Origin: a virus
Taxonomy: Duplodnaviria; Caudoviricetes
Length of the DNA stretch: 52,115 nt
Strand: one strand, 5' to 3'
IMG/VR virus record: IMGVR_UViG_3300034175_000039
Coordinates: 1 to 52,115 of that record
Under the pieces are notes generated by a model. The model was not told the DNA's origin. It did not search any database and worked only from the letters and a program-made list of their open reading frames with translations. A program made the translations under genes and the position numbers. Positions 18,542-50,985 of the stretch are shown here, one piece after another. The first letter of the stretch is position 1. Each line of letters begins with the position of its first letter.

Positions 18542-18957
18542 CCCCGGTTGTATGCAGAATAAAACATGATCCCGAAAACGCCGTTTATGCGGATTGTGTT
18601 CGCGCTTGTATCGCATCGGTGATGGATATGGATGCGGGTGATGTTCCGCATTTTTATCACGACAATTGCGATGGCTTGACCGGATTTGGTCGGATTAATG
18701 AGTTTCTAGCACCGTTCGGACTTGCGGCATTTAGCGTGGCGTATGATGGTGCCTATTCAATGGATGACGTACTAGCGTTGATGGGAGAACAAAACGCCGC
18801 AACGGTTTATCTGTTATTCGGTCAAACCGCGTACGGTGATCATGTGGTGGTATGTCGCGGCGGCGAATGCATCCATGACCCGGCGTGGTTCCGTTCGCCG
18901 TTGTTCAAAGCGGCGCAGGCTGGTTATTGGATCGTTATGGTGTTGGCTAAGTGTTAA
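18538..18957 (+). CDS. Putative papain-fold (C39-like) cysteine peptidase
   Basis: DCVRACIAS ... DHVVV ... IHDP gives a Cys-His-Asp order and spacing like C39-type peptidases. Confidence 0.5.
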   Translation: MTPVVCRIKHDPENAVYADCVRACIASVMDMDAGDVPHFYHDNCDGLTGFGRINEFLAPFGLAAFSVAYDGAYSMDDVLALMGEQNAATVYLLFGQTAYGDHVVVCRGGECIHDPAWFRSPLFKAAQAGYWIVMVLAKC

Positions 18958-37722: not shown

Positions 37723-37946
37723 CCATAGTTGTCAGGATCACAAAGCCGCAACAGAAAGCCCTTGATTGGTTGAACGATCATGGCGGCGATGGTGCATTCG
37801 TCCAAGGTGGCGCGACGATTATTGCACAAGGCGAGATTGCGCCGCATCAACGCGAAACATGGGTTGCTCTTCGCGATGCCCGACGCGTTGAATTCTATAA
37901 TGGCGCGGGCCGAGGCTACGGGCGTGTACGGATCGTCAAGTCATGA
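37719..37946 (+). CDS. Hypothetical protein
   Basis: ATGA overlaps at both ends. Confidence 0.55.
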   Translation: MTIVVRITKPQQKALDWLNDHGGDGAFVQGGATIIAQGEIAPHQRETWVALRDARRVEFYNGAGRGYGRVRIVKS

Positions 37947-39604
37947 ATGCTGTTCGCACCAATCACGCTGTCTATCCAGTGGCGTTCGACAACGCCGGTT
38001 ATACGCCGACCGAAGGGCAGGTAAGGCAAACCATCGCTGCAACGGCTGCAAAGAGCGGCAATGACGGTCTGTTGAACACTGACCCGATGATGAAGCGATC
38101 ATCCGATAGCGCATGGATGCTGGAATATTGGGATTTAACCGATACCATCGTTGACGGTATTAATGCGCTGCGCCTTGCCGCCGACCGTTACTTGCCCAGA
38201 TTCACCGACGAAGATCGTGCCGATTACGAATTTCGGCTGAAATGCACCAAAGTTACCAATATCTACCGTGATACCGTCGAAGGTTTGGCGTCCAAGCCGT
38301 TCGAACAGGAAGTTGCATTGCACGTTGATGAAAGCAAGATGGTTCCGCAACCGTTGCTTGACTTTATCGAAAACGTTGATGGCAGCGGGAACAATCTTAC
38401 CGTCTTTAGCGGCGCAACATTCTTCAACGGCATCAATAGTGCCATTGATTGGATATTTGTCGATTATTCAAAGCCTAATCCAAACGTGCGCAGCGTTGCG
38501 GATCAAAAGCGCGTGGGCGCACGGCCATATTGGTCGCACGTCTTGGGACGTAATGTTTTGGACCCGCGATCCACCATCATCAATGGCGAAGAGGTTTTGA
38601 CATATATCAAAATCTATGAGCCCGGTTCACCGGATCGTATTCGCGAATTTGAACGCTTGGACAGCGGCACCGTTGTTTGGCGGTTGTATGAAAAGAGCGA
38701 CCGACCGGGACCGGATGGAAAGACGATGTTCGTTCTTTTGCCGGGCGGTGATGGTGGTGGCGTGATCACCATTGGCGTTATCCCGATGGTTCCGTTCATC
38801 ACCGGTCGGCGTGATGGTCGTACGTGGCGTTTCTTTCCTGCCATGCGCGATGCGGCTGATCTTCAAATCGAATTGTATCAGCAAGAAAGCGCGCTTAAGT
38901 TCGTCAAGATATTGGCGGCGTATCCGATGCTTGCCGGTAACGGCGTCAAGCCGATCATGGAAGCCGATGGCAAGACGGTAAAGAAGATCGCTGTTGGCCC
39001 CGGTCGCGTTCTGTACGCGCCACCGGGTGGCGACGGTTCGTCCGGGTCGTGGGCGTTCGTTGAACCTTCCGCAACGACCATGAAGTTCCTTGCCGATGAC
39101 GTAAAGGACACCATGGCGCAGTTGCGCGAGTTGGGGCGTCAACCGCTTACGGTGGCCAACGTGACCGTCATCAATTCCGCACGTGGCGCAAACAAGTCGA
39201 AGTCGGCGGTCAAAGCATGGGCGCTTGGTCTGAAAGACGCGTTGGAAAACGCAATGGTCATCACGTGCAAATGGTTGGCCATTCCCGACACAACGTATAG
39301 TCCGGTCGTGAACGTATTTATGGAATTTGATGAATTCCTTGAAGGCAAAGACCTTGATACCTTGCAGGCGGCACGTGCGGCAAAGGATATCTCACAACTT
39401 ACCTATTGGGAAGAATTGCAGCGTCGCGCGGTCCTATCGCCCGAATTCGACGCTGATAACGAAACAGAGCGATTGCTTAACGAATTGCCCGGTGATGGTG
39501 AGGATAACAGCAATATTGACGATACGACCGGCCTGCCGATTTTGCCAAGTGATTCACGCTACGTTCCGCCCGGTGTTCCACCGAAGCCAAAGGATAAACC
39601 GTAA
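37943..39604 (+). CDS. Portal protein (DUF4055-like)
   Basis: YLPRF..E...Y..RL, NVDGSGNNL, IFVDY, RPYW and IPMVPF motifs; follows TerL. Confidence 0.88.
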   Translation: MNAVRTNHAVYPVAFDNAGYTPTEGQVRQTIAATAAKSGNDGLLNTDPMMKRSSDSAWMLEYWDLTDTIVDGINALRLAADRYLPRFTDEDRADYEFRLKCTKVTNIYRDTVEGLASKPFEQEVALHVDESKMVPQPLLDFIENVDGSGNNLTVFSGATFFNGINSAIDWIFVDYSKPNPNVRSVADQKRVGARPYWSHVLGRNVLDPRSTIINGEEVLTYIKIYEPGSPDRIREFERLDSGTVVWRLYEKSDRPGPDGKTMFVLLPGGDGGGVITIGVIPMVPFITGRRDGRTWRFFPAMRDAADLQIELYQQESALKFVKILAAYPMLAGNGVKPIMEADGKTVKKIAVGPGRVLYAPPGGDGSSGSWAFVEPSATTMKFLADDVKDTMAQLRELGRQPLTVANVTVINSARGANKSKSAVKAWALGLKDALENAMVITCKWLAIPDTTYSPVVNVFMEFDEFLEGKDLDTLQAARAAKDISQLTYWEELQRRAVLSPEFDADNETERLLNELPGDGEDNSNIDDTTGLPILPSDSRYVPPGVPPKPKDKP

Positions 39605-39813
39605 TGGCACGATTAGTTGTTTGGTGTGAATGGCGTGGTTTCTTTCGACGCCGCTTAGTTTATGGTTGGTCGGTTCGTGATGGGCATGGTAACATTATTA
39701 TTGCTAGTGAGAAAACATACGCCAACCTTGGTGCGCTTCATGATGAAGTGAACGCTGTTTCATTCGCGCTGACCGATGCTGTGAAACGTCCGGTGCCAAT
39801 CCACGGCCCTTAA
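39604..39813 (+). CDS. Small protein, YegP/DUF1508-like
   Basis: YGWSVRDGHGNIIIASEKTY resembles the W.L...NG.IIA.SE.Y pattern. Confidence 0.45.
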   Translation: MARLVVWCEWRGFFRRRLVYGWSVRDGHGNIIIASEKTYANLGALHDEVNAVSFALTDAVKRPVPIHGP

Positions 39814-39852
39814 CATAATCCCGACGTGCAACCGGGGGTGTTGCACAATATG

Positions 39853-39897
39853 GCTAATGTCAGGATAGACATTAGCGCAATTTGGTCGGATGGCCAA
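39853..39897 (+). promoter_or_regulatory. Two GGA-loop hairpins in the scaffold 5' UTR
   Basis: GCTAATGTC-AGGATA-GACATTAGC and TTGGTC-GGAT-GGCCAA. Confidence 0.65.
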
Positions 39898-39911
39898 GAA
39901 AGACGATGACA

Positions 39912-40748
39912 ATGCGTAATTTCAAGATGATCGCCGCTCTACTGACTGGGGCTGTTTTCCCCGTCGCGTTCGATACGGGCGGCAAGTGGAAGATGGACGG
40001 TGACAAGCTGGCATTGGATGGTGACGGCAATCCGATCTATGTCAAGGCGGACAATACCGAACAGTCGGTGAAAGGCGACACCATCGCCAACCTAAACGCG
40101 GAAGCCAAGACGCATCGTACCGCCAAGGAAACGGCGGAAAAAGCGTTGGATAAATACAAGTTGCCCGATGGCAAGTTGGTTGATCCGCAAACCGCTATCA
40201 AGGCGGTCGATACTGTCAGCAAGTTGGATGCGAAACAGCTTATCGACGCTGGCGAGGTCGATAAGGTCCGCAAGGAAATCGGTGATCAGTTTTCGACGCA
40301 GCTTGCCGAAAAAGATGCTGCGATCAACAGTGCCAATGACACCATTGCTAAGCTGAATGTCGCCAAGGTGTTCGATGGTTCGGAATTCGTTCGCGAGCGT
40401 GTTGCGGTTCCCCGCGATATGTTCCAATCGACGTTCGAAAAGAATTTCAAGTTCGAAGACGGCAAAGTTGTTGCATACGGTCGCGACGGCAACAAGCTGT
40501 TGTCCAAAAAAGCCGCTGGCGAATATGCCGACGCCGATGAAGCCTTGGAATTGCTGGTTGAAATGCACCCGCAAAAAGATGCGATTATCAAGGCGCAGCA
40601 AGGCGGTGGCACTGGCAATGGTGGTGGCGGTGGCAATCGCGGCGGCGGTCGTGTGATCCGACGTGCTGAATTCGACGCCTTGACGCCTACGCAGCAAGCG
40701 GAAACGGCAACGGCGGTCGGTAAGGGTGAAATGACCATTTCCGATTAA
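39912..40748 (+). CDS. Capsid scaffolding protein (DUF6651-like); start at 39906 or 39912
   Basis: DGNPIYV, LNAEAKTHR, LIDAGEVDKVR, ADADEALE and a Gly-rich C-terminus; between portal and capsid. Confidence 0.85.
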   Translation: MRNFKMIAALLTGAVFPVAFDTGGKWKMDGDKLALDGDGNPIYVKADNTEQSVKGDTIANLNAEAKTHRTAKETAEKALDKYKLPDGKLVDPQTAIKAVDTVSKLDAKQLIDAGEVDKVRKEIGDQFSTQLAEKDAAINSANDTIAKLNVAKVFDGSEFVRERVAVPRDMFQSTFEKNFKFEDGKVVAYGRDGNKLLSKKAAGEYADADEALELLVEMHPQKDAIIKAQQGGGTGNGGGGGNRGGGRVIRRAEFDALTPTQQAETATAVGKGEMTISD

Positions 40749-40790
40749 CGGTTAGATCGTCGGGGTGGTGCTGCGCCCCGGTTGATCGCC

Positions 40791-40824
40791 CGCCCGACGT
40801 GCTACGGTCATTGCACGTCGGGCG
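40791..40824. terminator. Hairpin downstream of the scaffold gene
   Basis: CGCCCGACGTGC-loop-GCACGTCGGGCG. Confidence 0.55.
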
Positions 40825-40939
40825 GTTGCTAAACGACGCTGGCGTTGGTGATCCTGCCATGCCGCGATATGACGGAAATGATAGCCGTCAAAGTATGATG
40901 CTTCCGCGTAGTCCATCCATCATGGCTAGCGCGTAAACC

Positions 40940-41068
40940 TTAAGGAACCGTTACCGAGACGATTTCGGCGGTGACGCCGTGCTTATCGCAATACGCCTGA
41001 ACGACTGACGGGCGGCACCACGTACCGAACGTGCGAGTGGTGTTGTTGCTGAAACGCAGCGTGATCAT
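40940..41068 (-). CDS. Small antisense-oriented gene (42 aa) between scaffold and capsid
   Basis: GGGAG RBS; own TTGACA...TATATC promoter at about 41100-41127. Confidence 0.55.
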   Translation of the reverse strand: MITLRFSNNTTRTFGTWCRPSVVQAYCDKHGVTAEIVSVTVP

Positions 41069-41222
41069 GATGGTTGCTCCCGTGGTCAAGTGTGCCGGGA
41101 TATACCGCCCGGCCCGGTAGTTGTCAAAGTGATTGTCAACGAATGCGATAATTTTTGTCGGTCGCATGACGCCGCTTGACCGTCTCGGCGCTTATGGATT
41201 ATGGATTTGTGCGATAGCCAAG

Positions 41223-41260
41223 GGTTGGATGACCGCGCGGCGCTTTAGGTCGGATGACCT
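41223..41260 (+). promoter_or_regulatory. Two GGAT-loop hairpins in the capsid 5' UTR
   Basis: GGTT-GGAT-GACC and AGGTC-GGAT-GACCT, downstream of a TTGACC at about 41176. Confidence 0.65.
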
Positions 41261-41294
41261 TGCCAAACCTCATTCAACTGAAAAGGGCGTCCTC

Positions 41295-42530
41295 ATGCGC
41301 AGTCTCATCACCGGCCCGGCCATGGGCATCATTCTGGCGTCGCGCGTTGCGCCTGCCATCGTCCATCAATCGGCGTATGCCAACACCTTGACCGGCGTTA
41401 TCGGTTCGCTGTTCGCGGGTATGAACGTCGTCAGTCGCGAGTTGACGGGCTTCATTCCGTCCGTTCGTCGCGACGCGCGTACCGAACGTGCGGCGGTCGG
41501 TCAGTCCGTCACCTTCCCCATCGCGCCGCCCCAAACCGCGACCGATGTCGTGCCCGCAATGCAGGTGCCGACACCGCCCGACAATACCATCGGTACGGGG
41601 AGCATGGCGATCACCAAGAGCCGCAAGGTCGCGTTCGGTTGGACGGGCGAGGAACAGCGCGCCGTCAACACCGGTGCCGGTTGGCAGGACGTTCAGGCCG
41701 ATCTTTTCGCGGAAGGGATGCGCACGCTCGTCAACGAAGTCGAAAGCGATTTGGCGTTGGAAGCGTCGTTAAACGTATCGCGTTGGACCGGTACGGCGGG
41801 CACGACGCCGTTCAGCGGTAATATCGACGGTAGCGCCGACGTTCGCAAAATCTTGGACGACAACGGCGCGCCGCCTACCGGTCGTTCGCTGATCATCAAC
41901 ACGTCGGCGGGTGCGAATCTGCGCAAGGTTCCCAACCTTACGCGCGTCAACGAAGCCGGGACCGCGATGACGCTACGCCAAGGCGAATTGCTCGATCTGA
42001 ACGCGCTTTCGATCAAGGAAAGCGGGCAGGCGTCGGTGTTCACGAAGGGCACCAACGCGGGCGCAACGACCAACGGCGCGGCTTATGCCGTTGGTTCGCG
42101 CGTGATCACGTTGGCGGCGGCGGGCACCGGTACGATCAAGAATGGCGATGCGATCCAGTTCGCCGGTGACACCAACATTTACGGTGTGTTGCTTGGTGAT
42201 GCAGACGTTGCGAACGGTGGCACGATCACGTTGGCCGGTCCCGGCCTGCGTGTCGCGATCCCGGCAGCGGCCACAGCGATCACCACGATTGGATCGCACG
42301 CCGTCAACGTGGCATTCAGCCAAGACGCCATGGCAATCGCCATGCGCGCCCCGGCTTTGCCGTCCGCTGGCGATCTGGCGTTGGATCGTATGACGTTGGT
42401 GGACCCGCGTTCCGGCATGGTGTTCGAAGTTTCGCTCTATCCCGGTTATCGGATGATCGAAGCCGAAATTGCCGCTGCATGGGGCGTCAAGGCGATCAAG
42501 CCGCAACACATCGCCGGATTGCTCGGCTAA
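41295..42530 (+). CDS. Major capsid protein (P22 coat / gp5-like family)
   Basis: AAAGGG RBS; ANTLT...VVSRELTGFIPSV, LVNEVESDL and WGVKAIKPQH motifs; followed by a terminator. Confidence 0.88.
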   Translation: MRSLITGPAMGIILASRVAPAIVHQSAYANTLTGVIGSLFAGMNVVSRELTGFIPSVRRDARTERAAVGQSVTFPIAPPQTATDVVPAMQVPTPPDNTIGTGSMAITKSRKVAFGWTGEEQRAVNTGAGWQDVQADLFAEGMRTLVNEVESDLALEASLNVSRWTGTAGTTPFSGNIDGSADVRKILDDNGAPPTGRSLIINTSAGANLRKVPNLTRVNEAGTAMTLRQGELLDLNALSIKESGQASVFTKGTNAGATTNGAAYAVGSRVITLAAAGTGTIKNGDAIQFAGDTNIYGVLLGDADVANGGTITLAGPGLRVAIPAAATAITTIGSHAVNVAFSQDAMAIAMRAPALPSAGDLALDRMTLVDPRSGMVFEVSLYPGYRMIEAEIAAAWGVKAIKPQHIAGLLG

Positions 42531-42536
42531 TTCAAT

Positions 42537-42564
42537 ACCGGCGCGACTACTAAATCGCGCCGGT
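42537..42564 (+). terminator. Hairpin after the capsid gene
   Basis: ACCGGCGCGA-loop-TCGCGCCGGT. Confidence 0.65.
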
Positions 42565-42598
42565 TCGTTGCGTTGTGTCATAGGAAAGGAAAATCAAG

Positions 42599-43123
42599 AT
42601 GAAATCTCTTTTGCTCGCATCGGCGGTATCGCTTTGCGCCGTCGCATTCATGTCGGACGTGTGCGAAACCGTTCTGATCAAGGGCGCGGACGGCAAGCCG
42701 CTTCGCGTCAACAAGAGCGATTACGACGCCGATCAGGCGGAAGGCGGCGAAAAGAAGATGACGCTGCATACCGAAGATAAGAAGGAACAACCCGATCCCA
42801 TCGTTGGCGAAACCGTCGTTTCGGTTCATCCCGAATTGACCATTCCGCCCGCACCGTCCGCACCGACGTTCGTCAATCCGGTCGCACCAAGCACCGCCAA
42901 TACGGATACGCTCATGGTCGCCAAGCATGGCACCGGCAAGGCGGCGAAGTTCTTTGTCGTTCGTCCCGATGGTTCGAAGATCGAAGATATGCGCGACGTG
43001 AACAAGGATGGCTATGACACCGAACCGCTGGCATGGGCGGCGGTCATGGAGGTCAAGAAACAGCCTTTCGAACAGCATACGGCACCGCCGCCGAACGTAC
43101 CGCCCGCGCCGCCTATCGTCTAG
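42599..43123 (+). CDS. Putative head-associated protein with leader peptide
   Basis: Strong AGGAAAGGA RBS; directly after the capsid gene; ETVLIK...RVNKSDYD. Confidence 0.65.
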   Translation: MKSLLLASAVSLCAVAFMSDVCETVLIKGADGKPLRVNKSDYDADQAEGGEKKMTLHTEDKKEQPDPIVGETVVSVHPELTIPPAPSAPTFVNPVAPSTANTDTLMVAKHGTGKAAKFFVVRPDGSKIEDMRDVNKDGYDTEPLAWAAVMEVKKQPFEQHTAPPPNVPPAPPIV

Positions 43124-43148
43124 CGCGGCACGTTCAGTCATGATACGG

Positions 43149-43185
43149 AAGGGGCGATAGGCAAGTAACCTATCGCCCCTTTTTT
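43149..43185 (+). terminator. Rho-independent terminator
   Basis: AAGGGGCGATAGG-loop-CCTATCGCCCC followed by a T-run. Confidence 0.85.
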
Positions 43186-43207
43186 GTTTGCAAGGTGAGT
43201 GGAACCG

Positions 43208-43708
43208 ATGGACGAATTTTACGGTACAGCCGGTGGATTTCGCATCTACCATACCGCGCGTGGTCGGAACATCGGTGCTTACGATGATGATAGCGAAATC
43301 GAAGCTGCGTTGTTGGTCGCGTCAGAACGCAACGATGCAAAATACCGGGCTTCGTTTTCGGGCACCAAGGTTGGTTATCGTTCTCAAATTCGCGACTTTC
43401 CACGCGTTGGCGGATTCGATGTGTTTGGTTATTCCATTCCTAGCGATACGATCCCGACTGAAATGATTAACGCGACGTATGAGGCGGCATTGCGCCAGCT
43501 TGTCACGCCGGGATCGTTGTCGCTGGATTGGACGCCTAGCAAATACAAGCGCGTTTCAGTGGACGGCGCAGTTAGTGCCGAATACACCGTGTTTGGGAGC
43601 GCGATGGACGTTCAGACGCAATTCGCCATCATCGATGAAATTATTGCGCCGATCCTTACCGGACATGGCAATTTCGCTGCGTTAAGCGGCGCTGCAATCC
43701 GCGTATGA
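43208..43708 (+). CDS. Head-tail adaptor (DnaT-like domain family)
   Basis: YHTARG, ALLVAS, G.K....Q.RDFPR and IPTEMINATYEAA motifs. Confidence 0.75.
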   Translation: MDEFYGTAGGFRIYHTARGRNIGAYDDDSEIEAALLVASERNDAKYRASFSGTKVGYRSQIRDFPRVGGFDVFGYSIPSDTIPTEMINATYEAALRQLVTPGSLSLDWTPSKYKRVSVDGAVSAEYTVFGSAMDVQTQFAIIDEIIAPILTGHGNFAALSGAAIRV

Positions 43709-43711
43709 AAA

Positions 43712-43739
43712 ACCCCGACACTATCGCTAGTGCCGGGGT
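43712..43739. terminator. Hairpin between convergent genes
   Basis: ACCCCGACACTA...TAGTGCCGGGGT with a T-run on the minus strand. Confidence 0.6.
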
Positions 43740-43767
43740 CATCAAATCAGGCGTACGCCCGGTTCGG

Positions 43768-44238
43768 TTAGATTTCGCGGAACACCAATGCCGTCGAACC
43801 TTCGGCGGGCGTGCCCTTCAACGTCTTCGCCATCGCGGCGTCCACATCCACAGCGAAATACTTGGCCGTCACGTCGGTTTCCGGTTCCGTCGTCGGCGTC
43901 TGACCGACGACCGCGCCGTTCGCGTCTTTGATATCGGTCGTCTTGAACACGGTGTTGCCCGCCGCATCCTTGCGCGTGACGACCGCCTTGCGGTTGGCGT
44001 TGCTGACGACGCTGGAGAGGCTGGCGGCGGTCTTGTTCTTGACGCCGAACGACATGCCCTTGGCGGTCAGGCTGGCGAACGGATAGATCGAAACGGAACC
44101 GCGCTTGCTCTTACGTTCCGGCATCGCGATCGCGTTGGTGACAGCGGTGAATACCGGTTCGACACGCGGCTTTTTGCCATCGTTGGCGAAGGCGGCGGCG
44201 CTGGCGGCGGTCAGTGTGGCAAGTCGAAGATTACGCAT
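43768..44238 (-). CDS. Basic putative DNA-binding protein with leader peptide (start 44238 or 44247)
   Basis: GGAAGGA RBS and own TTGACG promoter at about 44299; core MPERKSKRGS...YPFASL...GMSFGV; Lys/Thr/Ala-rich. Confidence 0.65.
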   Translation of the reverse strand: MRNLRLATLTAASAAAFANDGKKPRVEPVFTAVTNAIAMPERKSKRGSVSIYPFASLTAKGMSFGVKNKTAASLSSVVSNANRKAVVTRKDAAGNTVFKTTDIKDANGAVVGQTPTTEPETDVTAKYFAVDVDAAMAKTLKGTPAEGSTALVFREI

Positions 44239-44316
44239 GTTGGTCATTCCTTCCGTTGTTGGAAACCAAGCCATTAGCGGTGTTTCAAATGGTCGTCAAT
44301 AGGGTGTATCGGGAAA

Positions 44317-44709
44317 ATGTCAGATTTTTACGAAGATATGCGGTCGGTCGCGTCGGAACTCTTAAAAGAGTTCGACCAAAAGCGGCCCGGTGATCCCAGC
44401 CCGACCGATAACGGCATTTATTACGTCGGTATCACGCCCGGCACCGGTCCCGCCGACAATCCGGGTGCGCCGCAAGAGGCACCGCCGATCAAGGTGGATG
44501 CGGTAGCGCGGGGCGTCAGTTTCAAGTACGTTGATGGCACGAATGTCGTTCAGACCGATTTGCAAGCGACGATGGCCGTACGTCCCGATATGACACCGGC
44601 CATATCCGGTTTCATCATTGTGGATGGCAAGCGTCATAAGATCGTGAAGGTGATGCAAAAGCCCGCCGCTGGCACGTCGGTCGCTCATACCGTAATCTTT
44701 CGAAAGTAA
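44317..44709 (+). CDS. Head closure / head-tail joining protein
   Basis: FYEDMRSVASELLKEF, YVDGTNVVQTD and PAAGT motifs; synteny. Confidence 0.7.
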   Translation: MSDFYEDMRSVASELLKEFDQKRPGDPSPTDNGIYYVGITPGTGPADNPGAPQEAPPIKVDAVARGVSFKYVDGTNVVQTDLQATMAVRPDMTPAISGFIIVDGKRHKIVKVMQKPAAGTSVAHTVIFRK

Positions 44710-44714
44710 ACGTC

Positions 44715-45008
44715 ATGGGCGATAAAATAGAGAAATGGTGCGCGCATCCCGCCGCCTTTTGGTTTTTTACCGTGGCGTTTATTGTCGGCGTGCGGATAAA
44801 TGTGGATATATCGAATATCGCTATTTCTTACTTTACCGCCGCTTTGCTGCTACTCACCCTTGGCGGTCAGCGCCGAAGTAACAAGGCGATGCACGTAAAG
44901 CTTGACGACTTGGAAGTTGCGGTTGATGCTGCGAACAATGAAAACGCGCGCCTAGAAGAACTTGCAGAACACGAAATTGAGGCAAAACGAAATGCTATTG
45001 TGGGATAA
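44715..45008 (+). CDS. Small membrane protein resembling the low-affinity iron permease (Fet4-like) family
   Basis: HPAAF, two TM segments, then QRRSNKAMHVKLDDL..AVDAANN...LEEL. Confidence 0.6.
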   Translation: MGDKIEKWCAHPAAFWFFTVAFIVGVRINVDISNIAISYFTAALLLLTLGGQRRSNKAMHVKLDDLEVAVDAANNENARLEELAEHEIEAKRNAIVG

Positions 45009-45108
45009 TAATGCAACGTGGGATAACGGGAGTGGATGGAACGATATCGTTCTGATCATTCTTTGGTCGCATTTGGTGACTTGGAATAATGGTTTGGGTT
45101 GGCAGTAA
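44992..45108 (+). CDS. 38-aa Trp-periodic micro-protein (below the ORF-track cutoff)
   Basis: GAGG RBS; MLLWDNNATWDNGSGWNDIVLIILWSHLVTWNNGLGWQ; TAATG coupling to the next gene. Confidence 0.55.
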   Translation: MLLWDNNATWDNGSGWNDIVLIILWSHLVTWNNGLGWQ

Positions 45109-46127
45109 TGACACCACGTCAGAAACTTGAACAACTGATCGATCTGTTTATTCCTGATCTTCGTTCCGCATTTCTTGCCGCGATCCAAGATATTGTTGAT
45201 AACGTAATATTGAACAGCGTGATCATGGCCATTCAAGATGGCGATGTTGAAGCCGCTTTTCGTGCTATCGGCTATTCGCCTGCCGCCATGCGCCCGTTGA
45301 CCGCTGCGATTGAACGCGCGTTTGAAATGGGCGGCGTCATGACCGGCAACACTTTTCCGAAGTATCTCAACACGTATAGCGGACGTGCGGTGTTTCGGTT
45401 TGACGTACGCAACATCCGGGCGGAAGCTTGGTTGCGCGATAAATCGTCCACATTGGTTGGGCGGATCGAAGATGAAACGCGGACCAATGTTCGCACTGCA
45501 TTGATCGTTGGTATGCAGGACGGTCGCAACCCTCGCAACGTCGCATTGGATATTGTTGGTCGCATAGACAAGGCGAGCGGTCGCCGCGTCGGCGGGATTA
45601 TCGGTCTTACCGAACAACAAGATTATTGGGTTCGTGGCACGCGGACCAAGCTCATTCAGCTTGATAAATCATACTTCAACTTGGAGTTGCGCGACAAACG
45701 CTTTGATCGCACCGTTGCCGCTGCAATTCGTGATGGCAAGCCGCTAACGACCGACGTGGTTGACAAGTTGGTCAATCGATACAAAGATAATGCGTTGAAA
45801 TATCGCGGCGACACCATTGCCCGGACGGAAGCCATGCAATCGTTGAACGCGTCCGAATGGGAAGCAACCAAGCAAGCGGTGGCGCTTGGTGCCACCAAGA
45901 CCGATGCGGTTCAACGCGAATGGGATAGCGCCGGTGATAAGCGCGTACGGTTCTCGCATAGCCGCTTAGATGGTCAGCGCGTCGGGCTTGATACGCCGTT
46001 CACCGCGCCGTCTGGCGCAAGGATGATGCACCCCGGCGATACGTCGCTAGGTGCTAGTGCCGATGAAGTTGTTGGATGCCGGTGCCGCGTCCGCACCGTG
46101 ATCGATTGGCTTACCGACTTGGATTAA
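45108..46127 (+). CDS. Minor head / head morphogenesis protein (SPP1 gp7 / Mu F-like)
   Basis: IARTE, WDSAGDKRVRFSH..LDGQ, HPGD and GCRC motifs. Confidence 0.85.
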   Translation: MTPRQKLEQLIDLFIPDLRSAFLAAIQDIVDNVILNSVIMAIQDGDVEAAFRAIGYSPAAMRPLTAAIERAFEMGGVMTGNTFPKYLNTYSGRAVFRFDVRNIRAEAWLRDKSSTLVGRIEDETRTNVRTALIVGMQDGRNPRNVALDIVGRIDKASGRRVGGIIGLTEQQDYWVRGTRTKLIQLDKSYFNLELRDKRFDRTVAAAIRDGKPLTTDVVDKLVNRYKDNALKYRGDTIARTEAMQSLNASEWEATKQAVALGATKTDAVQREWDSAGDKRVRFSHSRLDGQRVGLDTPFTAPSGARMMHPGDTSLGASADEVVGCRCRVRTVIDWLTDLD

Positions 46128-46568
46128 TCACCGTCTGTAAATCGACGTTCCGGTCGCATAAACTGCCGATCAATAGTGTGTTGAATTTGCGTTAATGTGT
46201 ATTCAGCAGTCGTTGTATCCGGGTCATCGTTCCATTCTTTTATGAGTCCTTCGATTTGGTTAACAAGGCGAGATAATGCCGTATATCCGGCGTTTGGTGC
46301 TTTAGCCATCGCTTGAAATCTCACTCACATAAACCGACATGGGATTGATTGGCGGAACGCCGATAATCTGGATGACGATGTTCGCGCCTGCCGCAATCGC
46401 AGCGCGTTCCGCATCGGTTGGTTCCCATGCGGTAGTCATGGTCGGAAAATCGCCTTCAACGTTCTTGTCGGTCGTCTGACCGTAGTTGACGGCTAAACCG
46501 CGCCAGCCTTGCGCCTTTCCGGCAATGATCGTGCGTGCGGGATCGCCCGGTGGAATGACAGATTGCAT
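46124..46568 (-). other. Two small hypothetical genes (46124-46309 and 46302-46568)
   Basis: Coupled ORFs at the end of the leftward AAA operon; AWEPT.AE.AAI.AGA motif. Confidence 0.55.
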
Positions 46569-46570
46569 TA

Positions 46571-47698
46571 TTATTCTTTCTCTATTTTGACCGGTAGCTT
46601 ATCCGGCACGACATCGGGCAATAAAAACAGGGGATCGTTACCGCTATGATTTACGCTCAACACCGGCACGTAAAATTCATTTGGTCCGCATCGGTGGTCG
46701 TGATCGAATGAATTACTTGCCGATCCTTGTGATGCCCATATTGAACGCGTTTCGGGAACCGACGAACAGGCGGCAAAGCTGAACCGGCGCAAGAACGACG
46801 GATGACCAAGTGCGAACATCAAATCGCTAAGATTGAGCCGTTCACCGTTTTCTTTCAATTTAACCGCCAATTGATATTTCGCACGTCCGCCGCTTACCGA
46901 CGTATCGGTTGCGACAATGGCGCATGAATAGCCCGCGTTCTCCATTAGATCGATCATGGCACCGATCAACGCGGCACGCATGATGGCACTTTCCGCGTTG
47001 ACGTGACCGTTACAGCCGATTTCCACAAAGAACGTCACGACTTTGCGACCGGGCGATTTGGGGCGTCGCACCATATGCGCGGGATCACCGGACAACATGC
47101 GCCCGACGTTGACCGTGCCGCCCGCCACAGCGGCCCGGCGCTGGCGTACGCGGGGACTATCGACGGATAGCCGCTCCATGGCGTCTAGGGCGCGCTCAAC
47201 GCCGTCTGGCCAGCCCTTGCGGGCAAGATCGATAGCGTCCGCCATACGCCGCGTGCCGCGCCAATCACCGTCGTCAATTTCCCATCCCGAACGGTTCGGA
47301 TCAGTCGATTGCGAGGGCGCTAGACTTTCGATGTAATCGGTAAATTTGCCAAGGCTGGAAAAACCAAAGAACGCAGACACGTTTTGGTCGGCAAAGTGGT
47401 TGTGATAAGTCGCGTCATCGCCATAGATGGCAGACGGCGTGCTGTTCGATTGTCGCGTTACGTTGCTTTCAAGCAAGTGCGCCAACAACTCACTAAACGC
47501 GTCATCGGCATCGCTGCTAGCCGCTGGCATCGGATCATTGACCGTTTGCACCATCACGCCAACTAAGCCGCGAAGCTTACTGACTTGATCAGTGCTTAAG
47601 CGGTCAAAGGTCCATCGCTTTTCGTGCTTGTTGAACAGCCCGCCCATGCTGCGCAGCAAGTCGCGGTGTTCGAACGTGCGTCCGGTGGCGGTGATCAT
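46571..47698 (-). CDS. vWA-like partner of a MoxR ATPase (CobT-like position)
   Basis: GGTVNVGRMLSGDPAHM, VVTFFVEIGCNG (degenerate MIDAS strand), DLMENAGY and HPSFLRR; same operon as the AAA ATPase. Confidence 0.6.
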   Translation of the reverse strand: MITATGRTFEHRDLLRSMGGLFNKHEKRWTFDRLSTDQVSKLRGLVGVMVQTVNDPMPAASSDADDAFSELLAHLLESNVTRQSNSTPSAIYGDDATYHNHFADQNVSAFFGFSSLGKFTDYIESLAPSQSTDPNRSGWEIDDGDWRGTRRMADAIDLARKGWPDGVERALDAMERLSVDSPRVRQRRAAVAGGTVNVGRMLSGDPAHMVRRPKSPGRKVVTFFVEIGCNGHVNAESAIMRAALIGAMIDLMENAGYSCAIVATDTSVSGGRAKYQLAVKLKENGERLNLSDLMFALGHPSFLRRFSFAACSSVPETRSIWASQGSASNSFDHDHRCGPNEFYVPVLSVNHSGNDPLFLLPDVVPDKLPVKIEKE

Positions 47699-48093
47699 TT
47701 AGGTGTGGACCAAGTGTAACGATGACCATGTTGTGCGCTTGCATATCCTTGTGCAACTGCGCATCTATCTCTGTCAAAAAATTGATCTATATAGCTTTCA
47801 CCATCCCAATAGGTCGCGCCACTGATATAGCCATTATGCATGCCAATGATGCGTTGAATAGTGTGATTGCTAAATCGTTGCGCTTCCTCTTTTGTACGTG
47901 GCGGATTGGCGAGATAAAACGTGTCATTGATACGTGTGCCGTCCACAATAGCCTCTTGTCTGCCGCCAAATGGACCGACATTAACGGCTTCGCGGGGCCG
48001 TTGAAACCATAGCACTTTGTAACGTTTGGCGATTGGTTTATCGCAAACTATACATCGGGGTCGGTTAAGATCGATACTACGTGCCATAATCAT
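47695..48093 (-). CDS. Hypothetical protein with N-terminal CxxC
   Basis: PRCIVCDKPI...FFDRDRCA; downstream of promoter copy E. Confidence 0.55.
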   Translation of the reverse strand: MIMARSIDLNRPRCIVCDKPIAKRYKVLWFQRPREAVNVGPFGGRQEAIVDGTRINDTFYLANPPRTKEEAQRFSNHTIQRIIGMHNGYISGATYWDGESYIDQFFDRDRCAVAQGYASAQHGHRYTWSTPK

Positions 48094-48117
48094 AATCTCA
48101 AGAATTGTGCAACAACT

Positions 48118-48146
48118 ATCCTAATGGTCATCGCAATGGTCGTCAA
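48118..48146 (-). promoter_or_regulatory. Sigma70-like promoter, family copy E
   Basis: Minus strand TTGACG-accattgcgatgaccat(17 nt)-TAGGAT. Confidence 0.75.
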
Positions 48147-49219
48147 GCGATTTTTTCACGGTCGCGTTCTGACATGCCTTTGAACAGATAAATTTCTTCC
48201 ACGTCATCCCAATCGACGCCGATGGATAGCGCAGCCGCGCCCATCCCAATTGCTCGGCTGCTAACGACGTGGCGAATTTTCTTATCGGTCACGTTCTTGC
48301 GAACGGACCACACGCGGTCTAGCCAACGGTGCTGATCACCGGCAAACATTTGTTCAAGCGTCGTGTCGTAATCCACATTGATCGTTGCGAACCGGTCAAG
48401 CGATGCGGCGTCCAACTCATTGCGCCCGACATAAACGCGGTCTGCGCCAGTGCCGAACGTGTTAGCCGTCGCGATCATGCGAAAATCGGGATGACGCATC
48501 ACCGGTGCGGCTTGGTCGGGAAAGGTACAATAGCCGTTGGCAAGCGCGCTGTTCGCAGCTAGCAGCGCCGACGCATCCCATGCGTCGATTTCGTCCGCAA
48601 TCCAAACGCCGCCGCTTTCGAACGCATGACGAAACGGCGTGCTGTGATATTTGCCCATACCGTCAACAAAGCCGATCAATTCATGTGTATCATTGATGGT
48701 ATTGGTGATCTTGAACGCGAGTTGCAGCGCCTTCGCTACATGTTCACCGATAGTGGTCTTACCGCATCCGGCCGGTCCGACCAACATGACCGCATGTCCA
48801 AGCGATGCGATCTTTATGACCAATTCAGTTCGATAGTGAATTAATCCTTCAAGCGTTATCGATCCACGTGGTGATATGATTTCCAACTGACGTGGCGGCA
48901 TTGCACTTAGTAGCTTTTGCGCTTCGTCAAAGGCGAGTACGCGAATGGTGTTTTCGGTTATGGAACCGTTCGTAAAAACGGTCATCGTCGCTAAGACTGC
49001 TGCCGCTGTTGCACGCTGGATATCGTCAGCTTGGGGGGTGTTCGGACGCCCGCCCGCATGGTAAAGGTTGACAAGATCAACGAAAGACATGGCGTGAACC
49101 GCGACCGGCTGCAAACCGCACTCAATCGCATATTCGATCAATTGCAGTTTATCGCTTGGATTGGGCATGTAATTAGCGGGGTCGCCAAGCTGCCATTCAA
49201 TCAATTTTTTCCGGTTCAT
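48143..49219 (-). CDS. MoxR/CbbQ/CobS-like AAA+ ATPase
   Basis: GPAGCGKT, ADEID, HPDFRMIATANT and LDAASLDRF motifs. Confidence 0.88.
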   Translation of the reverse strand: MNRKKLIEWQLGDPANYMPNPSDKLQLIEYAIECGLQPVAVHAMSFVDLVNLYHAGGRPNTPQADDIQRATAAAVLATMTVFTNGSITENTIRVLAFDEAQKLLSAMPPRQLEIISPRGSITLEGLIHYRTELVIKIASLGHAVMLVGPAGCGKTTIGEHVAKALQLAFKITNTINDTHELIGFVDGMGKYHSTPFRHAFESGGVWIADEIDAWDASALLAANSALANGYCTFPDQAAPVMRHPDFRMIATANTFGTGADRVYVGRNELDAASLDRFATINVDYDTTLEQMFAGDQHRWLDRVWSVRKNVTDKKIRHVVSSRAIGMGAAALSIGVDWDDVEEIYLFKGMSERDREKIA

Positions 49220-49292
49220 CGCACGGTCTTAAAAGCAACCTAACGCAAATGCAACACGAATTTGACCGCTATGTCAAAATTTATTCAGGTGG

Positions 49293-49754
49293 ATGACCAT
49301 GGCGCAACGATACACCGGACGACAACGCGCTTACGGTCATTTGACCGCTGATATAGAAGATTTTGTGGCAACGTCCGAAAAACGAATGATCGCATTGATG
49401 CGTGAAAGCATTCAGGACGTTGTGTTGAACGCCCAAACGCCAGTGGGTAAAGGCGGGCGTATGCGCGTCGATACCGGCTTTCTTCGTGCGTCCGGTCAGG
49501 CATCGTTGACGGGCATGCCGACCGGCCCGACGCGTGGTGAACTAACGGCACCGGGATCATACGGTTACAATGAGAATACCGTTACCGTGAAACTTGGTGA
49601 TTTGAAGATTGGTCAGACGTTCCACTTTGGATGGACCGCCGAATATGCCAAGTATCGCGAGTTATACGATGGTTTTTTAGAGGGTGCTTTGCAGAATTGG
49701 GCAAGGATCGTCGCGTTCAATACTGATAGCATTCGGCAAAGGATCAAGAAATGA
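49293..49754 (+). CDS. Tail completion protein (HK97 gp10-like)
   Basis: MRVDTGFLRAS and WTAEYA motifs. Confidence 0.78.
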   Translation: MTMAQRYTGRQRAYGHLTADIEDFVATSEKRMIALMRESIQDVVLNAQTPVGKGGRMRVDTGFLRASGQASLTGMPTGPTRGELTAPGSYGYNENTVTVKLGDLKIGQTFHFGWTAEYAKYRELYDGFLEGALQNWARIVAFNTDSIRQRIKK

Positions 49755-50167
49755 GCGACATGGAAGATCACGCCATTTTGGCAATCTTGCAAGGTGAAAC
49801 AACCTTAGCGGTTGAGGCGTGCGCAATTCCGACGTTGCCCGTCAAATATTTCGGGATCGGCTTTACCGTCCCGAACGACCAAAAATGGCTTGAAATTGTT
49901 TGGTTGCCTAATAATCGCAGTGGTGATTATTGGGGCGATGAAAAGAACTATCGCGGCACCTATCGTTTGATCTTGCATTGGCCAAATGATGGTGCCGGGC
50001 CTTACGAACCGATGTTGTTGTTGAGTAACATCACGTCACGTTTCGCAAAGAATAGAATGTTGCAATACGTTCAGATTTATGACAACCCGGATAGCGGCGG
50101 CGTGCTAGAGCAAGGGGCCGAAAATCTGTATCCGGCTAGCGTCCGTTATCAGTGTTTCAAACGATGA
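49751..50167 (+). CDS. Tail terminator protein
   Basis: FTVPNDQKWL, RGTYRL..HWPN..G and PASVRY; directly before the tail tube gene. Confidence 0.7.
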   Translation: MSDMEDHAILAILQGETTLAVEACAIPTLPVKYFGIGFTVPNDQKWLEIVWLPNNRSGDYWGDEKNYRGTYRLILHWPNDGAGPYEPMLLLSNITSRFAKNRMLQYVQIYDNPDSGGVLEQGAENLYPASVRYQCFKR

Positions 50168-50178
50168 AAGGTTTCGCT

Positions 50179-50985
50179 ATGCGCCGTCGCTCAATCCTAC
50201 TGGCATCCGCCGTCGCGGCCTTCCCGGTCGCTCACTTCAACACCAACGCCGGGTCGAAGCTGTTCGTGTGCGCCACGCCGCAACAGTCCGATCTTACGCA
50301 GGCGCAGTTTGAAGCCCTCGTATGGGTTCAGGTCAAGGGCGTCGGCTCGCACGGTGAAACCGGGCAGTCCACCAATATTCTGACCTATGACACGTGGGAT
50401 ACGGTCGTCATCCAAAAGGCGAAGGGAATGACCGACGCGGGATCACCGGAAATCGAATTGGCGCGCGATCCCTTGGACGCGGGGCAAATCATTTTGCGAA
50501 CCATTTGTTCGCCGTCGAATATGAACTTCGCGTTCAAGATTACGCGTAACGATCCCAACGTGATCACCGGCACGCCGACGACAATTTACAACCGTGGTCT
50601 TGTCGTTGGACCGCGCCGCCCGATGGGGCGGAACGAAGATTTCGATTTGGAAATGTTCACGCTTGGTTTGCAGCAAGTCGAATTGGTCGTTGATCCGTCC
50701 GGCGCGGGCGTTCCGCCCACGCTTACCGTTGCCCCGGTTATCACCGGAACGGCGCAGGTCAATTCCGTCCTTACCGCCAGTACGGGCACCTTCACCGGTG
50801 ACGCGACCATTGTGCGAACGTATCAGTGGTTCGCGGGTGGCGTGCTTATCCCCGGTGCGACCGCGAACACGTACATTCCGGTCGCCGCCAACGTCGGCAA
50901 GGTCATCAGCGTGCGTGTCACCGGTACGAACGCAGCCGGTAGCGCGATTGGTCATTCGGCACCGACCACCGCCGTCATTGCTTAG
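50179..50985 (+). CDS. Major tail tube protein with C-terminal Ig-like domain
   Basis: GAAAGG RBS; TNAGSK, KAKG..DAGS and D..DAGQ motifs; Ig-like PVITGTAQV...YQWF...GAT..TY...VRVTGTNAAGS. Confidence 0.88.
   Translation: MRRRSILLASAVAAFPVAHFNTNAGSKLFVCATPQQSDLTQAQFEALVWVQVKGVGSHGETGQSTNILTYDTWDTVVIQKAKGMTDAGSPEIELARDPLDAGQIILRTICSPSNMNFAFKITRNDPNVITGTPTTIYNRGLVVGPRRPMGRNEDFDLEMFTLGLQQVELVVDPSGAGVPPTLTVAPVITGTAQVNSVLTASTGTFTGDATIVRTYQWFAGGVLIPGATANTYIPVAANVGKVISVRVTGTNAAGSAIGHSAPTTAVIA

What the first reader, a model, noticed from the sequence alone, without database searches (positions are those of the whole stretch)
37943..50240. Shared N-terminal leader peptides on six unrelated proteins: candidate leader-dependent virion maturation or targeting system
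Seen in sequence: portal (37943) MNAVRTNHAVYPVAF-DN; scaffold (39912) MRNFKMIAALLTGAVFPVAF-DT; tail tube (50179) MRRRSILLASAVAAFPVAHF-NTNAGS; capsid (41295) MRSLITGPAMGIILASRVAPAIVHQSAY-ANTLT; post-capsid protein (42599) MKSLLLASAVSLCAVAF-MSD; antisense basic protein (44238) MRNLRLATLTAASAAAF-AND. Most have a basic start and an (I/L)LA(S/T)-like hydrophobic core (the portal lacks this core), and all end in an aromatic residue followed by D/N/A/M. Portal and scaffold share AV(Y/F)PVAFD with different synonymous codons (gctgtctatccagtggcgttcgac at 37967 vs gctgttttccccgtcgcgttcgat at 39951), which points to selection on the peptide rather than recent DNA duplication. Established: Staphylococcus phage 80alpha capsid and scaffold carry leaders cut by the host Prp protease, but that motif differs and Prp is not a proteobacterial system. 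Inference: these are cleavable leaders recognised by one protease or targeting factor, covering head and tail proteins alike. Their signal-peptide-like character is unexpected for cytoplasmically assembled proteins, and no prohead protease gene is recognisable.
Basis: partly seen in the sequence, partly recalled or inferred. Interest (0 to 1): 0.88.

Follow-up and report, generated by a model that had tools for sequence, protein, structure and literature searches.

The report
Shared clip-off leaders on phage proteins
This uncultured relative of two Rhizobium phages starts six unrelated proteins (portal, scaffold, capsid, tail tube and two small proteins) with the same kind of short add-on peptide, and its own small cysteine peptidase is the best candidate for cutting it off, though no cut has been shown.

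Summary
All six leaders are at the stated coordinates, lie upstream of where leaderless homologues begin, and recur in the orthologues of Rhizobium phages P106B and RHph_X2_24 and of dozens of IMG/VR relatives. They end in small residue + F/Y/H followed by A/D/N/E/M. A matrix trained only on other phages' scaffold leaders picks out the window's non-homologous leaders.

They are not Sec signals: portal leaders lack a hydrophobic core and the cargo assembles in the cytoplasm. They are not a virion-only tag: three relatives put the leader on their Gp2.5-like SSB.

Best reading (about 45%): a portable propeptide on self-assembling proteins, cut at or just after the aromatic residue by the phage's own 139-aa C39-like cysteine peptidase (18538-18957).
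- The peptidase is in 19 of 19 full leader-bearing records and in none of the four leaderless relatives searched with it first.
- Of the 21 window genes found in all 19, it is the only one missing from the leaderless phage nested in the clade.
- Against: distant homologues occur in three phages without such leaders, there are only 2-3 independent co-losses, and no cleavage data exist.

This is an analogue of Prp/80alpha with a different motif and a candidate phage-encoded enzyme. The scan noted the same motif on another genome and analogous systems elsewhere.

The parts
37943..37987 (+). Portal leader, 15 aa, ending PVAF before DN. It has no hydrophobic core. The portal gene is 37943-39604.
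   Evidence: highest 9-residue hydropathy 0.58. phrog_145 starts at residue 48. Conserved in L006 and L026.
39912..39971 (+). Scaffold leader, 20 aa, ending FPVAF before DTGGKWK. The scaffold gene is 39912-40748 (DUF6651, phrog_784).
   Evidence: 42 distinct orthologous leaders. Leaderless forms in L046, L066, CGphi29 and Me-ZS1.
41295..41378 (+). Major capsid leader, 28 aa, ending VHQSAY before ANTLT. The P22-type coat gene is 41295-42530.
   Evidence: phrog_283 starts at residue 29. 52 distinct orthologous leaders. Leaderless homologues begin M-ANTLT.
42599..42649 (+). Leader of the post-capsid protein, 17 aa, ending CAVAF before MSD. The gene is 42599-43123.
   Evidence: The orthologue in P106B starts at the Met that follows the leader here. 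G004, G010 and G013 have leaders. There is a Shine-Dalgarno-like run before 42599 and none before the internal Met.
44188..44238 (-). Leader of the small basic minus-strand protein, 17 aa, ending AAAF before ANDGKK. The gene is 43768-44238.
   Evidence: Shine-Dalgarno-like GGAAGGA. Weak DUF7303 match. Orthologues with leaders in P106B, X2_24 and others. Found in 12 of 19 leader-bearing records and none of the leaderless ones.
50179..50238 (+). Tail tube leader, 20 aa, ending FPVAHF before NTNAGS. The tube gene is 50179-50985.
   Evidence: phrog_158. 26 distinct orthologous leaders. Leaderless relatives begin MA-NTNAASK.
18538..18957 (+). Candidate leader peptidase: a stand-alone 139-aa papain-like (C39-like) cysteine peptidase, or 143 aa if it starts at 18526. 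Cys20, His102 and Asp114 (numbering from 18538) are the inferred catalytic residues.
   Evidence: phrog_5845 and no Pfam family. Cys20 and His102 are invariant in 17 sequences, and position 114 is D or N. Fold matches. Phyletic link to the leaders.

Best explanation
The window is an almost complete genome of an uncultured Rigallicvirus-like siphophage with a P22-type coat, a separate scaffold and no classical prohead protease. Six proteins are translated with a 15-28-residue N-terminal propeptide: portal, scaffold, coat, a post-capsid protein, a small basic protein and the tail tube. The conserved recognition element is its end, a small residue (A/G/V) followed by F/Y/H, then A/D/N/E/M.

Shown: the leaders exist, are selected as peptide, are portable between unrelated proteins, and co-vary within a genome.

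Inferred:
- The propeptide is removed by one endoproteolytic cut at the aromatic residue, or one residue after it. This gives the same mature N-terminus that leaderless homologues have after Met removal.
- The cutter is the phage's own small papain-like (C39-like) cysteine peptidase encoded at 18538-18957.
- The tag serves proteins that self-assemble in many copies, perhaps by holding them back or chaperoning them until they are clipped.
For: 1. The leaders are extensions relative to the family profiles. The five core families keep them in P106B and X2_24. In the capsid tree, 68 of 84 rows are leader-bearing.

2. Leaderless homologues start exactly at the junction: M-ANTLT for the capsid and MA-NTNAASK for the tube. 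In the post-capsid protein, and in one SSB, the ancestral Met still follows the aromatic residue.

3. Cross-family matrices trained on other phages recover the window's non-homologous leaders.

4. Leader loss is all-or-none. The L046 record lacks the leader on the four families found there: capsid, scaffold, tube and portal.

5. Peptidase distribution: 19 of 31 distinct records matched.
- All 19 full leader-bearing records have it.
- The leaderless G001, G002, DMCA and CGphi29 lack it.
- The one leader-bearing record without a match, G009, is a contig that ends about 1.4 kb short of where its relative carries the gene.
- Seven partial records were not assessable.

6. 21 window genes are present in all 19 leader-bearing records. 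20 of them are also in the leaderless G001, and only the peptidase is missing. In G001 its flanking genes lie about 212 bp apart.

7. On the capsid tree, the leader trait and the peptidase trait each need 3 changes, in the same places.

8. Fold of the peptidase: AF2 pLDDT 79. All of the top VIA-align rows are clan-CA peptidases: PeiR Z 9.0, PCAT1 and ComA C39 domains Z 8.7. The top Foldseek hit is a double-glycine leader protease, probability 0.94. The ESM Atlas structure search gives C39 clusters at TM 0.62-0.64.

9. Scaffold and tube leaders are more alike within a genome than between genomes: 1-3 of 5000 permutations reach the observed value.

10. Precedent: host Prp cuts F|A leaders from the 80alpha capsid and scaffold, and the same motif is on a tail protein (passages read in PMC5744158).
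Against: - No direct evidence of cleavage exists for any member. The primary P106B paper is not in the searchable library.
- Distant homologues of the peptidase (28-37% identity) occur in phages with no recognisable leaders: Me-ZS1, Mallos, and the 50 of 55.7 kb of MW202621 that were read. The family is therefore not tied to leaders everywhere.
- Co-variation rests on only 2-3 independent events, so the sign test cannot reach significance. In G001 the neighbouring methylase is missing too, so the loss could be a block deletion.
- The gene lies in the replication module, not the head module.
- The fold scores are only just above the background quoted by the tool: no Foldseek match at E <= 0.001, and Z 9 against a typical 7-8.
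- There is no Pfam C39 match and no sequence match to a solved structure.
- C39 enzymes cut after Gly-Gly, which is not the motif here.
- The permutation test ignores relatedness, and the tube-capsid pairs show no excess.
Confidence: 0.45

Rival explanations
1. The leaders are cleavable, but a host protease of the alphaproteobacterial host does the cutting, as Prp does for 80alpha. The phage peptidase has another job.
For: - The 80alpha precedent uses a host enzyme.
- The peptidase family also occurs in phages without leaders.
- The peptidase gene sits among replication genes.
- Within-genome similarity of leaders would also follow from adaptation to a host-specific enzyme.
Against: - Prp (PF04327) rang only in B. 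subtilis, T. maritima and L. lactis among the 14 control genomes, and is absent from the record.
- A host enzyme does not explain why the leaderless G001 kept 20 of the 21 core genes and lost exactly the peptidase.
- No host protein with this motif was looked for, because the host is unknown.
Confidence: 0.2
2. The leaders are never removed. They stay on the proteins as a common N-terminal handle, for example for a chaperone, for transient membrane association or for co-assembly.
For: - In 80alpha the scaffold's N-terminal peptide is needed for assembly, while cleavage itself is dispensable.
- There are no cleavage data here.
- The leaders are mostly hydrophobic.
Against: - Leaderless relatives with 59% capsid identity build the same proteins without any handle.
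- The junction coincides exactly with the homologues' mature N-terminus, and the end motif is the best conserved part. Both are typical of a processing site.
- A 28-residue hydrophobic tail on every coat subunit, and 20 residues on every tube subunit, would have to fit into conserved lattices.
Confidence: 0.15
3. The leaders are genuine Sec or Tat signal peptides, and the proteins, or a fraction of them, are exported or inserted in the membrane.
For: - Five of the six have a basic start, a hydrophobic stretch (highest 9-residue hydropathy 1.6-2.5) and a small residue two positions before the junction.
- The tube leader starts MRRRS.
- From memory, many alphaproteobacterial signal peptides end in AFA.
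Against: - Portal leaders lack any hydrophobic core (0.58 in the window). In L050 the portal and scaffold leaders are short and end in FF before DG.
- Many junctions have F/Y/V at positions that signal peptidase I disfavours. That rule is recalled from memory.
- The cargo is coat, scaffold, portal, tube and, in three phages, an ssDNA-binding protein. All of these act in the cytoplasm.
- SignalP was not available.
Confidence: 0.03
4. The leaders are an annotation artefact: the true starts lie downstream and the upstream frames are open by chance.
For: Internal Met or Val codons exist in some leaders. The post-capsid protein has a Met directly after its leader.
Against: - There is no start codon between the capsid leader and the conserved ANTLT.
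- Four of the leader starts have a Shine-Dalgarno-like run, and the internal Met does not.
- There is an excess of synonymous change.
- The leaders are conserved across dozens of genomes.
- In leaderless relatives a stop codon closes the frame within a few codons.
Confidence: 0.02

Closest known systems
Prp-dependent N-terminal processing of capsid and scaffold proteins of Staphylococcus phage 80alpha (host cysteine protease Prp, which also matures ribosomal protein L27)
   Same: - Short N-terminal leaders sit on unrelated, self-assembling phage proteins in a phage with no prohead protease.
- The conserved motif ends in an aromatic residue followed by a small residue (F|A in 80alpha).
- The same motif is reported on a tail protein of another phage (passages read in PMC5744158).
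- The likely cutter is a small cysteine peptidase.
   Different: - The motif here is small residue + F/Y/H followed by A/D/N/E/M, after a hydrophobic rather than an LNLQ-type stretch. The LNLQ wording is recalled from memory.
- The known hosts are Rhizobium and Sinorhizobium, and Prp was not found in the record.
- More proteins are tagged: portal, tube, small proteins and, in relatives, the SSB.
- The candidate enzyme is phage-encoded and has a papain/C39-like fold, not the Prp fold.
C39 bacteriocin-processing peptidase domains (ComA, PCAT1, LahT-type double-glycine proteases)
   Same: - The size is about 140 residues.
- The fold is papain-like, with Cys, His and Asp in the same order.
- These are the top structural matches.
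- Their known job is to remove N-terminal leader peptides from many different substrates that share only the leader.
   Different: - No Pfam match at E <= 10.
- The leaders do not end in Gly-Gly.
- The protein is not fused to an ABC transporter.
- The substrates would be structural proteins in the cytoplasm, not exported peptides.
Capsid targeting sequence (CTS) of phage T4 internal proteins, removed by prohead protease gp21
   Same: A shared short N-terminal peptide sits on unrelated phage proteins, including small basic ones, and is removed during maturation. This description of T4 is recalled from memory.
   Different: - Here the tag is also on the tail tube and, in relatives, on the SSB, so it cannot be a head-loading address.
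- No gp21-type protease was found.
- The motif is different.

Membership tests
Prp/80alpha-type leader system | N-terminal extension on capsid and scaffold that is absent from homologues | tested here: met
   Profile starts and leaderless homologues.
Prp/80alpha-type leader system | A Prp (PF04327, MEROPS C108) enzyme is available and host L27 carries the same motif | tested here: not met
   PF04327 is absent from the virus record and rings in only 3 of the 14 control genomes, none of them a proteobacterium. The host genome is unknown, so host L27 could not be examined.
Prp/80alpha-type leader system | Cleavage between the aromatic residue and the next residue has been demonstrated | not testable with these tools
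   No proteomic data were found.
Peptidase C39 (PF03412) / clan CA | Papain-like fold with Cys, His and Asp/Asn in that order | tested here: met
   Cys20 and His102 are invariant and position 114 is D or N in 17 sequences. The top VIA-align rows are all clan-CA peptidases, Z 9.0-8.4. Foldseek probability is 0.94-0.98 for C39 domains, but no E-value reaches 0.001. The geometry of the triad in the model was not inspected.
Peptidase C39 (PF03412) / clan CA | Match to the family's sequence profile | tested here: not met
   0 Pfam families at E <= 10. No significant sequence match to solved structures. One neighbouring viral ESM Atlas cluster has PF03412 on 11% of its members.
Peptidase C39 (PF03412) / clan CA | Substrate leaders end in a double-glycine type motif | tested here: not met
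   120 distinct leaders end in a small residue plus F/Y/H.
Sec signal peptide (signal peptidase I substrate) | Basic n-region, hydrophobic h-region, small residues at -1 and -3, and an extracytoplasmic passenger | tested here: not met
   The portal leader has no h-region. L050 has short leaders without a core. The passengers are cytoplasmic assembly proteins and an SSB. SignalP was not run.
T4-type capsid targeting sequence | The tag is confined to proteins loaded into the prohead and is cut by a prohead protease | tested here: not met
   The tag is on the tail tube and on the Gp2.5-like SSB of relatives. No prohead protease family was found.

The most novel reading that the evidence does not exclude
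A phage-encoded, stand-alone C39-like cysteine peptidase (phrog_5845) is a new class of phage maturation enzyme. It works in the cytoplasm on a portable 'small + aromatic' leader that evolution can place on any abundant self-assembling protein: portal, scaffold, coat, tail tube, internal basic protein, even the ssDNA-binding protein. The leader would license or time their assembly. A bolder extension is that the many released hydrophobic peptides have a function of their own.
Probability: 0.35. Interest if true: 0.85.

Novelty: new variant of a known kind. Interest (0 to 1): 0.72.

Why it matters
Proteolytic maturation of tailed phages is thought of as a matter for the head, done by serine prohead proteases. 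The one host-enzyme exception is Prp in staphylococcal phages.

Here a large clade of phages of soil and water bacteria has at least 68 leader-bearing capsid rows among the 84 examined and more than 500 peptidase homologues in public data. It tags head, tail and sometimes replication proteins with one leader and carries its own candidate cysteine peptidase.

If confirmed, this would add a new enzyme class to phage assembly. It would show that the leader-and-peptidase logic known from bacteriocins has been put to use inside the cell. It would also explain why gene callers and structure models of these phages get the N-termini wrong.

It is directly testable, because two members, P106B and RHph_X2_24, are cultured on harmless rhizobia.

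Tried and rejected
- Whole-region DNA search against cultured phages: no near match.
- AAA_5 ATPase (48143-49219) and DUF7192 protein (46571-47698) as the leader-associated factor: rejected. They are absent from leaderless G001 but present in only 10 of the 19 full leader-bearing records.
- Distal tail protein 2652-3335 as a seventh substrate (rank 5): rejected. Its orthologues align from residue 2, so the hit lies inside the mature protein.
- Other hits of the loose regular expression (DNA polymerase, TerS, ORF 32492): judged to be chance.
- G009 (L031) as a leader-bearing genome without the peptidase: set aside as not assessable, because the contig ends just short of that locus.
- Complex prediction with the peptidase alignment plus scaffold residues 1-45: 'no answer', score 0.15 against a mark of 0.32, controls not run. 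This is not evidence either way.
- Generic all-against-all comparison of N-termini: too insensitive. Only the portal-scaffold pair exceeded the null in the window.
- Sequence search of solved structures with the peptidase profile: nothing significant.
- Literature: five searches found no paper on leaders in these phages or on a papain-like phage maturation protease. Only search listings were seen, except PMC5744158, of which passages were read. Supplementary files were not opened, and the primary P106B paper is not in the library. Virion proteomics there could bear on the claim.
- SignalP, MEME and inspection of the model's active-site geometry were not available or not done.
- Rows left out:
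  - Capsid hits not covering query residues up to 400, or starting after residue 40, were dropped before the tree.
  - L006 was left out of matrix training.
  - Leader states in the tree were assigned by eye, after the automatic rule proved confounded by Met residues inside leaders.

Full report
WHAT THE WINDOW IS. The window is a whole IMG/VR virus record of 52,115 bases, estimated 94% complete. The tape-measure gene runs across its ends. Its closest cultured relatives are Rhizobium phage vB_RglS_P106B and Rhizobium phage RHph_X2_24, genus Rigallicvirus, at about 61-62% capsid identity and with the same gene order. The head module has TerL, a portal (phrog_145), a scaffold (DUF6651, phrog_784), a P22-type coat (phrog_283), an Ad1 adaptor, Hc1 and a Mu-F-like protein. 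Neck proteins and a tail tube (phrog_158) follow. No prohead protease family was found in the 10 + 60 ORFs scanned with Pfam or the 10 + 8 scanned with PHROGs.

The two quoted DNA strings are at 37967 and 39951 and differ in 5 of 8 codons, 4 of them synonymously. The family profiles begin after the leaders: capsid residue 29, scaffold 26, portal 48. The leader starts of the capsid, post-capsid, minus-strand and tube genes have Shine-Dalgarno-like runs. The portal start overlaps the upstream stop. The Met that follows the post-capsid leader has no such run. Between the window and its closest relative L006, 38 leader codons show 7 synonymous and 4 non-synonymous differences.

THE LEADERS ARE CONSERVED. 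The orthologues in P106B and X2_24 carry leaders on the same five core proteins, ending in TAF/AAY/SAF before A/N-N. A capsid-based scan of IMG/VR returned 80 loci. From these and the cultured phages I extracted 42 distinct scaffold leaders, 52 capsid leaders and 26 tube leaders. The common element is a small residue plus F/Y/H, followed by A/D/N/E.

STATISTICS.
- A position matrix built only from other phages' scaffold leaders was run over 57,681 six-frame positions of the window. It ranked the scaffold leader 1, the minus-strand protein 2, the portal 7, the tube 8 and the post-capsid protein 14. A tube-trained matrix ranked the minus-strand protein 1 and the scaffold 3.
- A cruder regular expression was weaker. 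It hit 9 of 70 N-termini against 25 of 1037 internal windows. It missed the tube, four of its nine hits are not leaders, and at least one of 1000 shuffles reached 9.

WHERE THE JUNCTION IS. Leaderless homologues exist.
- Salicola phage CGphi29 and Caulobacter phage DMCA.
- Microcystis phage Me-ZS1.
- Several IMG/VR lineages, including L044/45/46.

Their proteins start where the leaders end: M-ANTLT (capsid) and MA-NTNAASK (tube). In the post-capsid protein, and in one relative's SSB, the ancestral Met still follows the aromatic residue. A cut directly after the aromatic residue would therefore recreate the N-terminus that homologues have after Met removal. A cut one residue later, which would put F/Y/H at P2 (a preference of papain-like enzymes, recalled from memory), cannot be excluded.

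WHAT THE LEADERS ARE NOT.
- Not Sec signals. The portal leader has no hydrophobic core (highest 9-residue hydropathy 0.58). In L050 the portal and scaffold leaders are short and end in FF before DG. The cargo assembles in the cytoplasm.
- Not a virion-only address. In three related records (G011, G012, G013) the Gp2.5-like ssDNA-binding protein (phrog_7011) carries a typical leader that the other orthologues lack.
- A variable set. The post-capsid protein has a leader in the window, G004, G010 and G013, but not in P106B or G008. A matrix scan of 24 full genomes plus the window found leaders on capsid orthologues in 17 genomes, scaffold in 17, tube in 15, portal in 9, the minus-strand protein in 7 and the SSB in 2. 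These counts are lower bounds at the threshold used.

THE CANDIDATE ENZYME. Another first-stage note on this window (e1-6322894) pointed to ORF 18538-18957.
- It has no Pfam family, even at E <= 10, and belongs to phrog_5845, of unknown function.
- In 17 aligned homologues D19, C20, R22, V36, P37, H102 and P115 are invariant, and position 114 is D or N.
- The AF2 model has pLDDT 79.2 and pTM 0.78.
- Foldseek found no match at E <= 0.001. Its top rows are double-glycine leader proteases and PCAT1/ComA C39 domains, with probability 0.94-0.98.
- The independent VIA-align search listed only clan-CA cysteine peptidases at the top: PeiR Z 9.0, PCAT1 8.7, ComA 8.7 and AvrRpt2 8.4. The tool warns that the best Z for unmatched models is typically 7-8.
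- The ESM Atlas structure search gave bacterial Peptidase_C39 clusters at TM 0.62-0.64.
- A profile search found 517 homologues, all unnamed, mostly on contigs of up to about 73 kb.

PHYLETIC LINK BETWEEN LEADERS AND PEPTIDASE. The peptidase was searched in 31 distinct records, and 19 have it. Of the 12 without a match:
- four are leaderless (G001 = the L046 record, G002 = the L074 record, DMCA and CGphi29);
- seven are fragments of 32-70% completeness;
- one, G009, is a leader-bearing contig that ends about 1.4 kb short of the place where its relative carries the gene.

I then fetched 19 full leader-bearing records and 5 leaderless ones and profiled 69 window genes by tblastn. The peptidase is in 19 of 19 leader-bearing records and in 1 of 5 leaderless ones (Me-ZS1). 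Twenty-one window genes are in all 19 leader-bearing records. G001 is leaderless and is nested inside a clade with 96% SH-aLRT support, next to leader-bearing phages. It has 20 of those 21 genes and lacks only the peptidase. In G001 the flanking genes lie about 212 bp apart, and the neighbouring methylase is absent too. On the capsid tree, leader and peptidase each need three changes, at the same places. That gives only 2-3 independent pairs, too few for a significant sign test. The AAA_5 ATPase and its DUF7192 partner, also absent from G001, are in only 10 of the 19 and are rejected as the factor.

CO-EVOLUTION OF THE LEADERS. The last 4-8 residues of the scaffold and tube leaders are more alike within a genome than between genomes: 1-3 of 5000 permutations reach the observed value, over 21 genomes. 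Scaffold against capsid is weaker (46-301 of 5000). Tube against capsid shows nothing. The test ignores relatedness. The pattern fits one recognising partner that differs between lineages, whether phage- or host-encoded.

EVIDENCE AGAINST THE PEPTIDASE LINK.
- tblastn of the peptidase against cultured phages found distant homologues (28-37% identity) in 21 records, counting duplicate GenBank/RefSeq entries. Examples are Xanthomonas phage Mallos, where the gene lies just upstream of the portal gene, Xylophilus phage Lumi, Caulobacter phage Sansa, Microcystis phage Me-ZS1, the jumbo Pseudomonas phage Noxifer and mycobacteriophages.
- Me-ZS1, Mallos and the 50 of 55.7 kb of MW202621 that I read show no leaders on structural proteins: the annotated N-termini of Me-ZS1 and Mallos are plain, and neither the matrix scans nor the N-terminus comparisons found any. 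The family therefore has other substrates or roles outside this clade.
- The structure-based complex test gave no verdict.
- No cleavage data exist.

COMPARISON WITH WHAT IS KNOWN. The nearest system is 80alpha. Host Prp cuts between F and A and removes 13-14 residues from the capsid and scaffold. The scaffold's N-terminal peptide is needed for assembly, while cleavage is dispensable. [quoted passage not shown] The present system works like that, but it fails the membership test: no Prp, another motif, a wider set of substrates, and a candidate phage-encoded enzyme of another fold. It resembles C39 leader processing in fold and logic, but not in profile, motif or cellular setting.

EARLIER NOTES OF THE SCAN. 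These are unchecked AI notes. They report the same PVAF-type motif on another genome (e1-6287080) and analogous leader systems paired with other small peptidases in other phage groups (e1-6107882, e1-5850089, e1-6203214, e1-5757536). So the theme has been found before on other DNA. No paper describing it for these phages turned up in five searches.

VERDICT. The best mechanism is a portable clip-off leader on self-assembling proteins, most probably cut by the phage's own C39-like cysteine peptidase (confidence about 0.45). A host protease is the main rival. I class it as a new variant of a known kind, with interest 0.72.

Noticed in passing
G011, G012 and G013 (full records fetched as L135-L143); orthologues of window 14847-15884 (-): In three related phages the Gp2.5-like ssDNA-binding protein carries a typical leader ending in AAY, AVAY or TAY. 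The window's own SSB and the other orthologues start without one.
   Followed up: partly
window 46571-49219 (-): An AAA_5 (MoxR/CobS-like) ATPase, a 132-aa protein and a DUF7192 protein sit on the opposite strand in the middle of the structural module. The ATPase and the DUF7192 protein travel together and are in 10 of the 19 related full records. Their role is unknown.
   Followed up: partly
Xanthomonas phage Mallos NC_073030.1, 6690-7361 (L107): A distant homologue of the small cysteine peptidase forms the C-terminal part of a 223-aa protein directly upstream of the portal gene, in a phage without recognisable leaders. Further homologues occur in the jumbo phage Noxifer and in mycobacteriophages.
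   Followed up: partly
window 51898-52115 and 1-2655 (+): The tape-measure gene is split by the ends of the record, so the record is a permuted, nearly complete genome.
   Followed up: no
window 43705-44277 (+): A 190-aa open frame lies antisense to the small basic leader-bearing gene. It is rich in R/G and is probably not a gene. The minus-strand gene has the Shine-Dalgarno-like run and the conserved orthologues.
   Followed up: partly
G001 (L108-L110), about 39671-39883: In the leaderless relative the peptidase and the adjacent DNA methylase are both missing between conserved flanking genes, which lie about 212 bp apart.
   Followed up: partly
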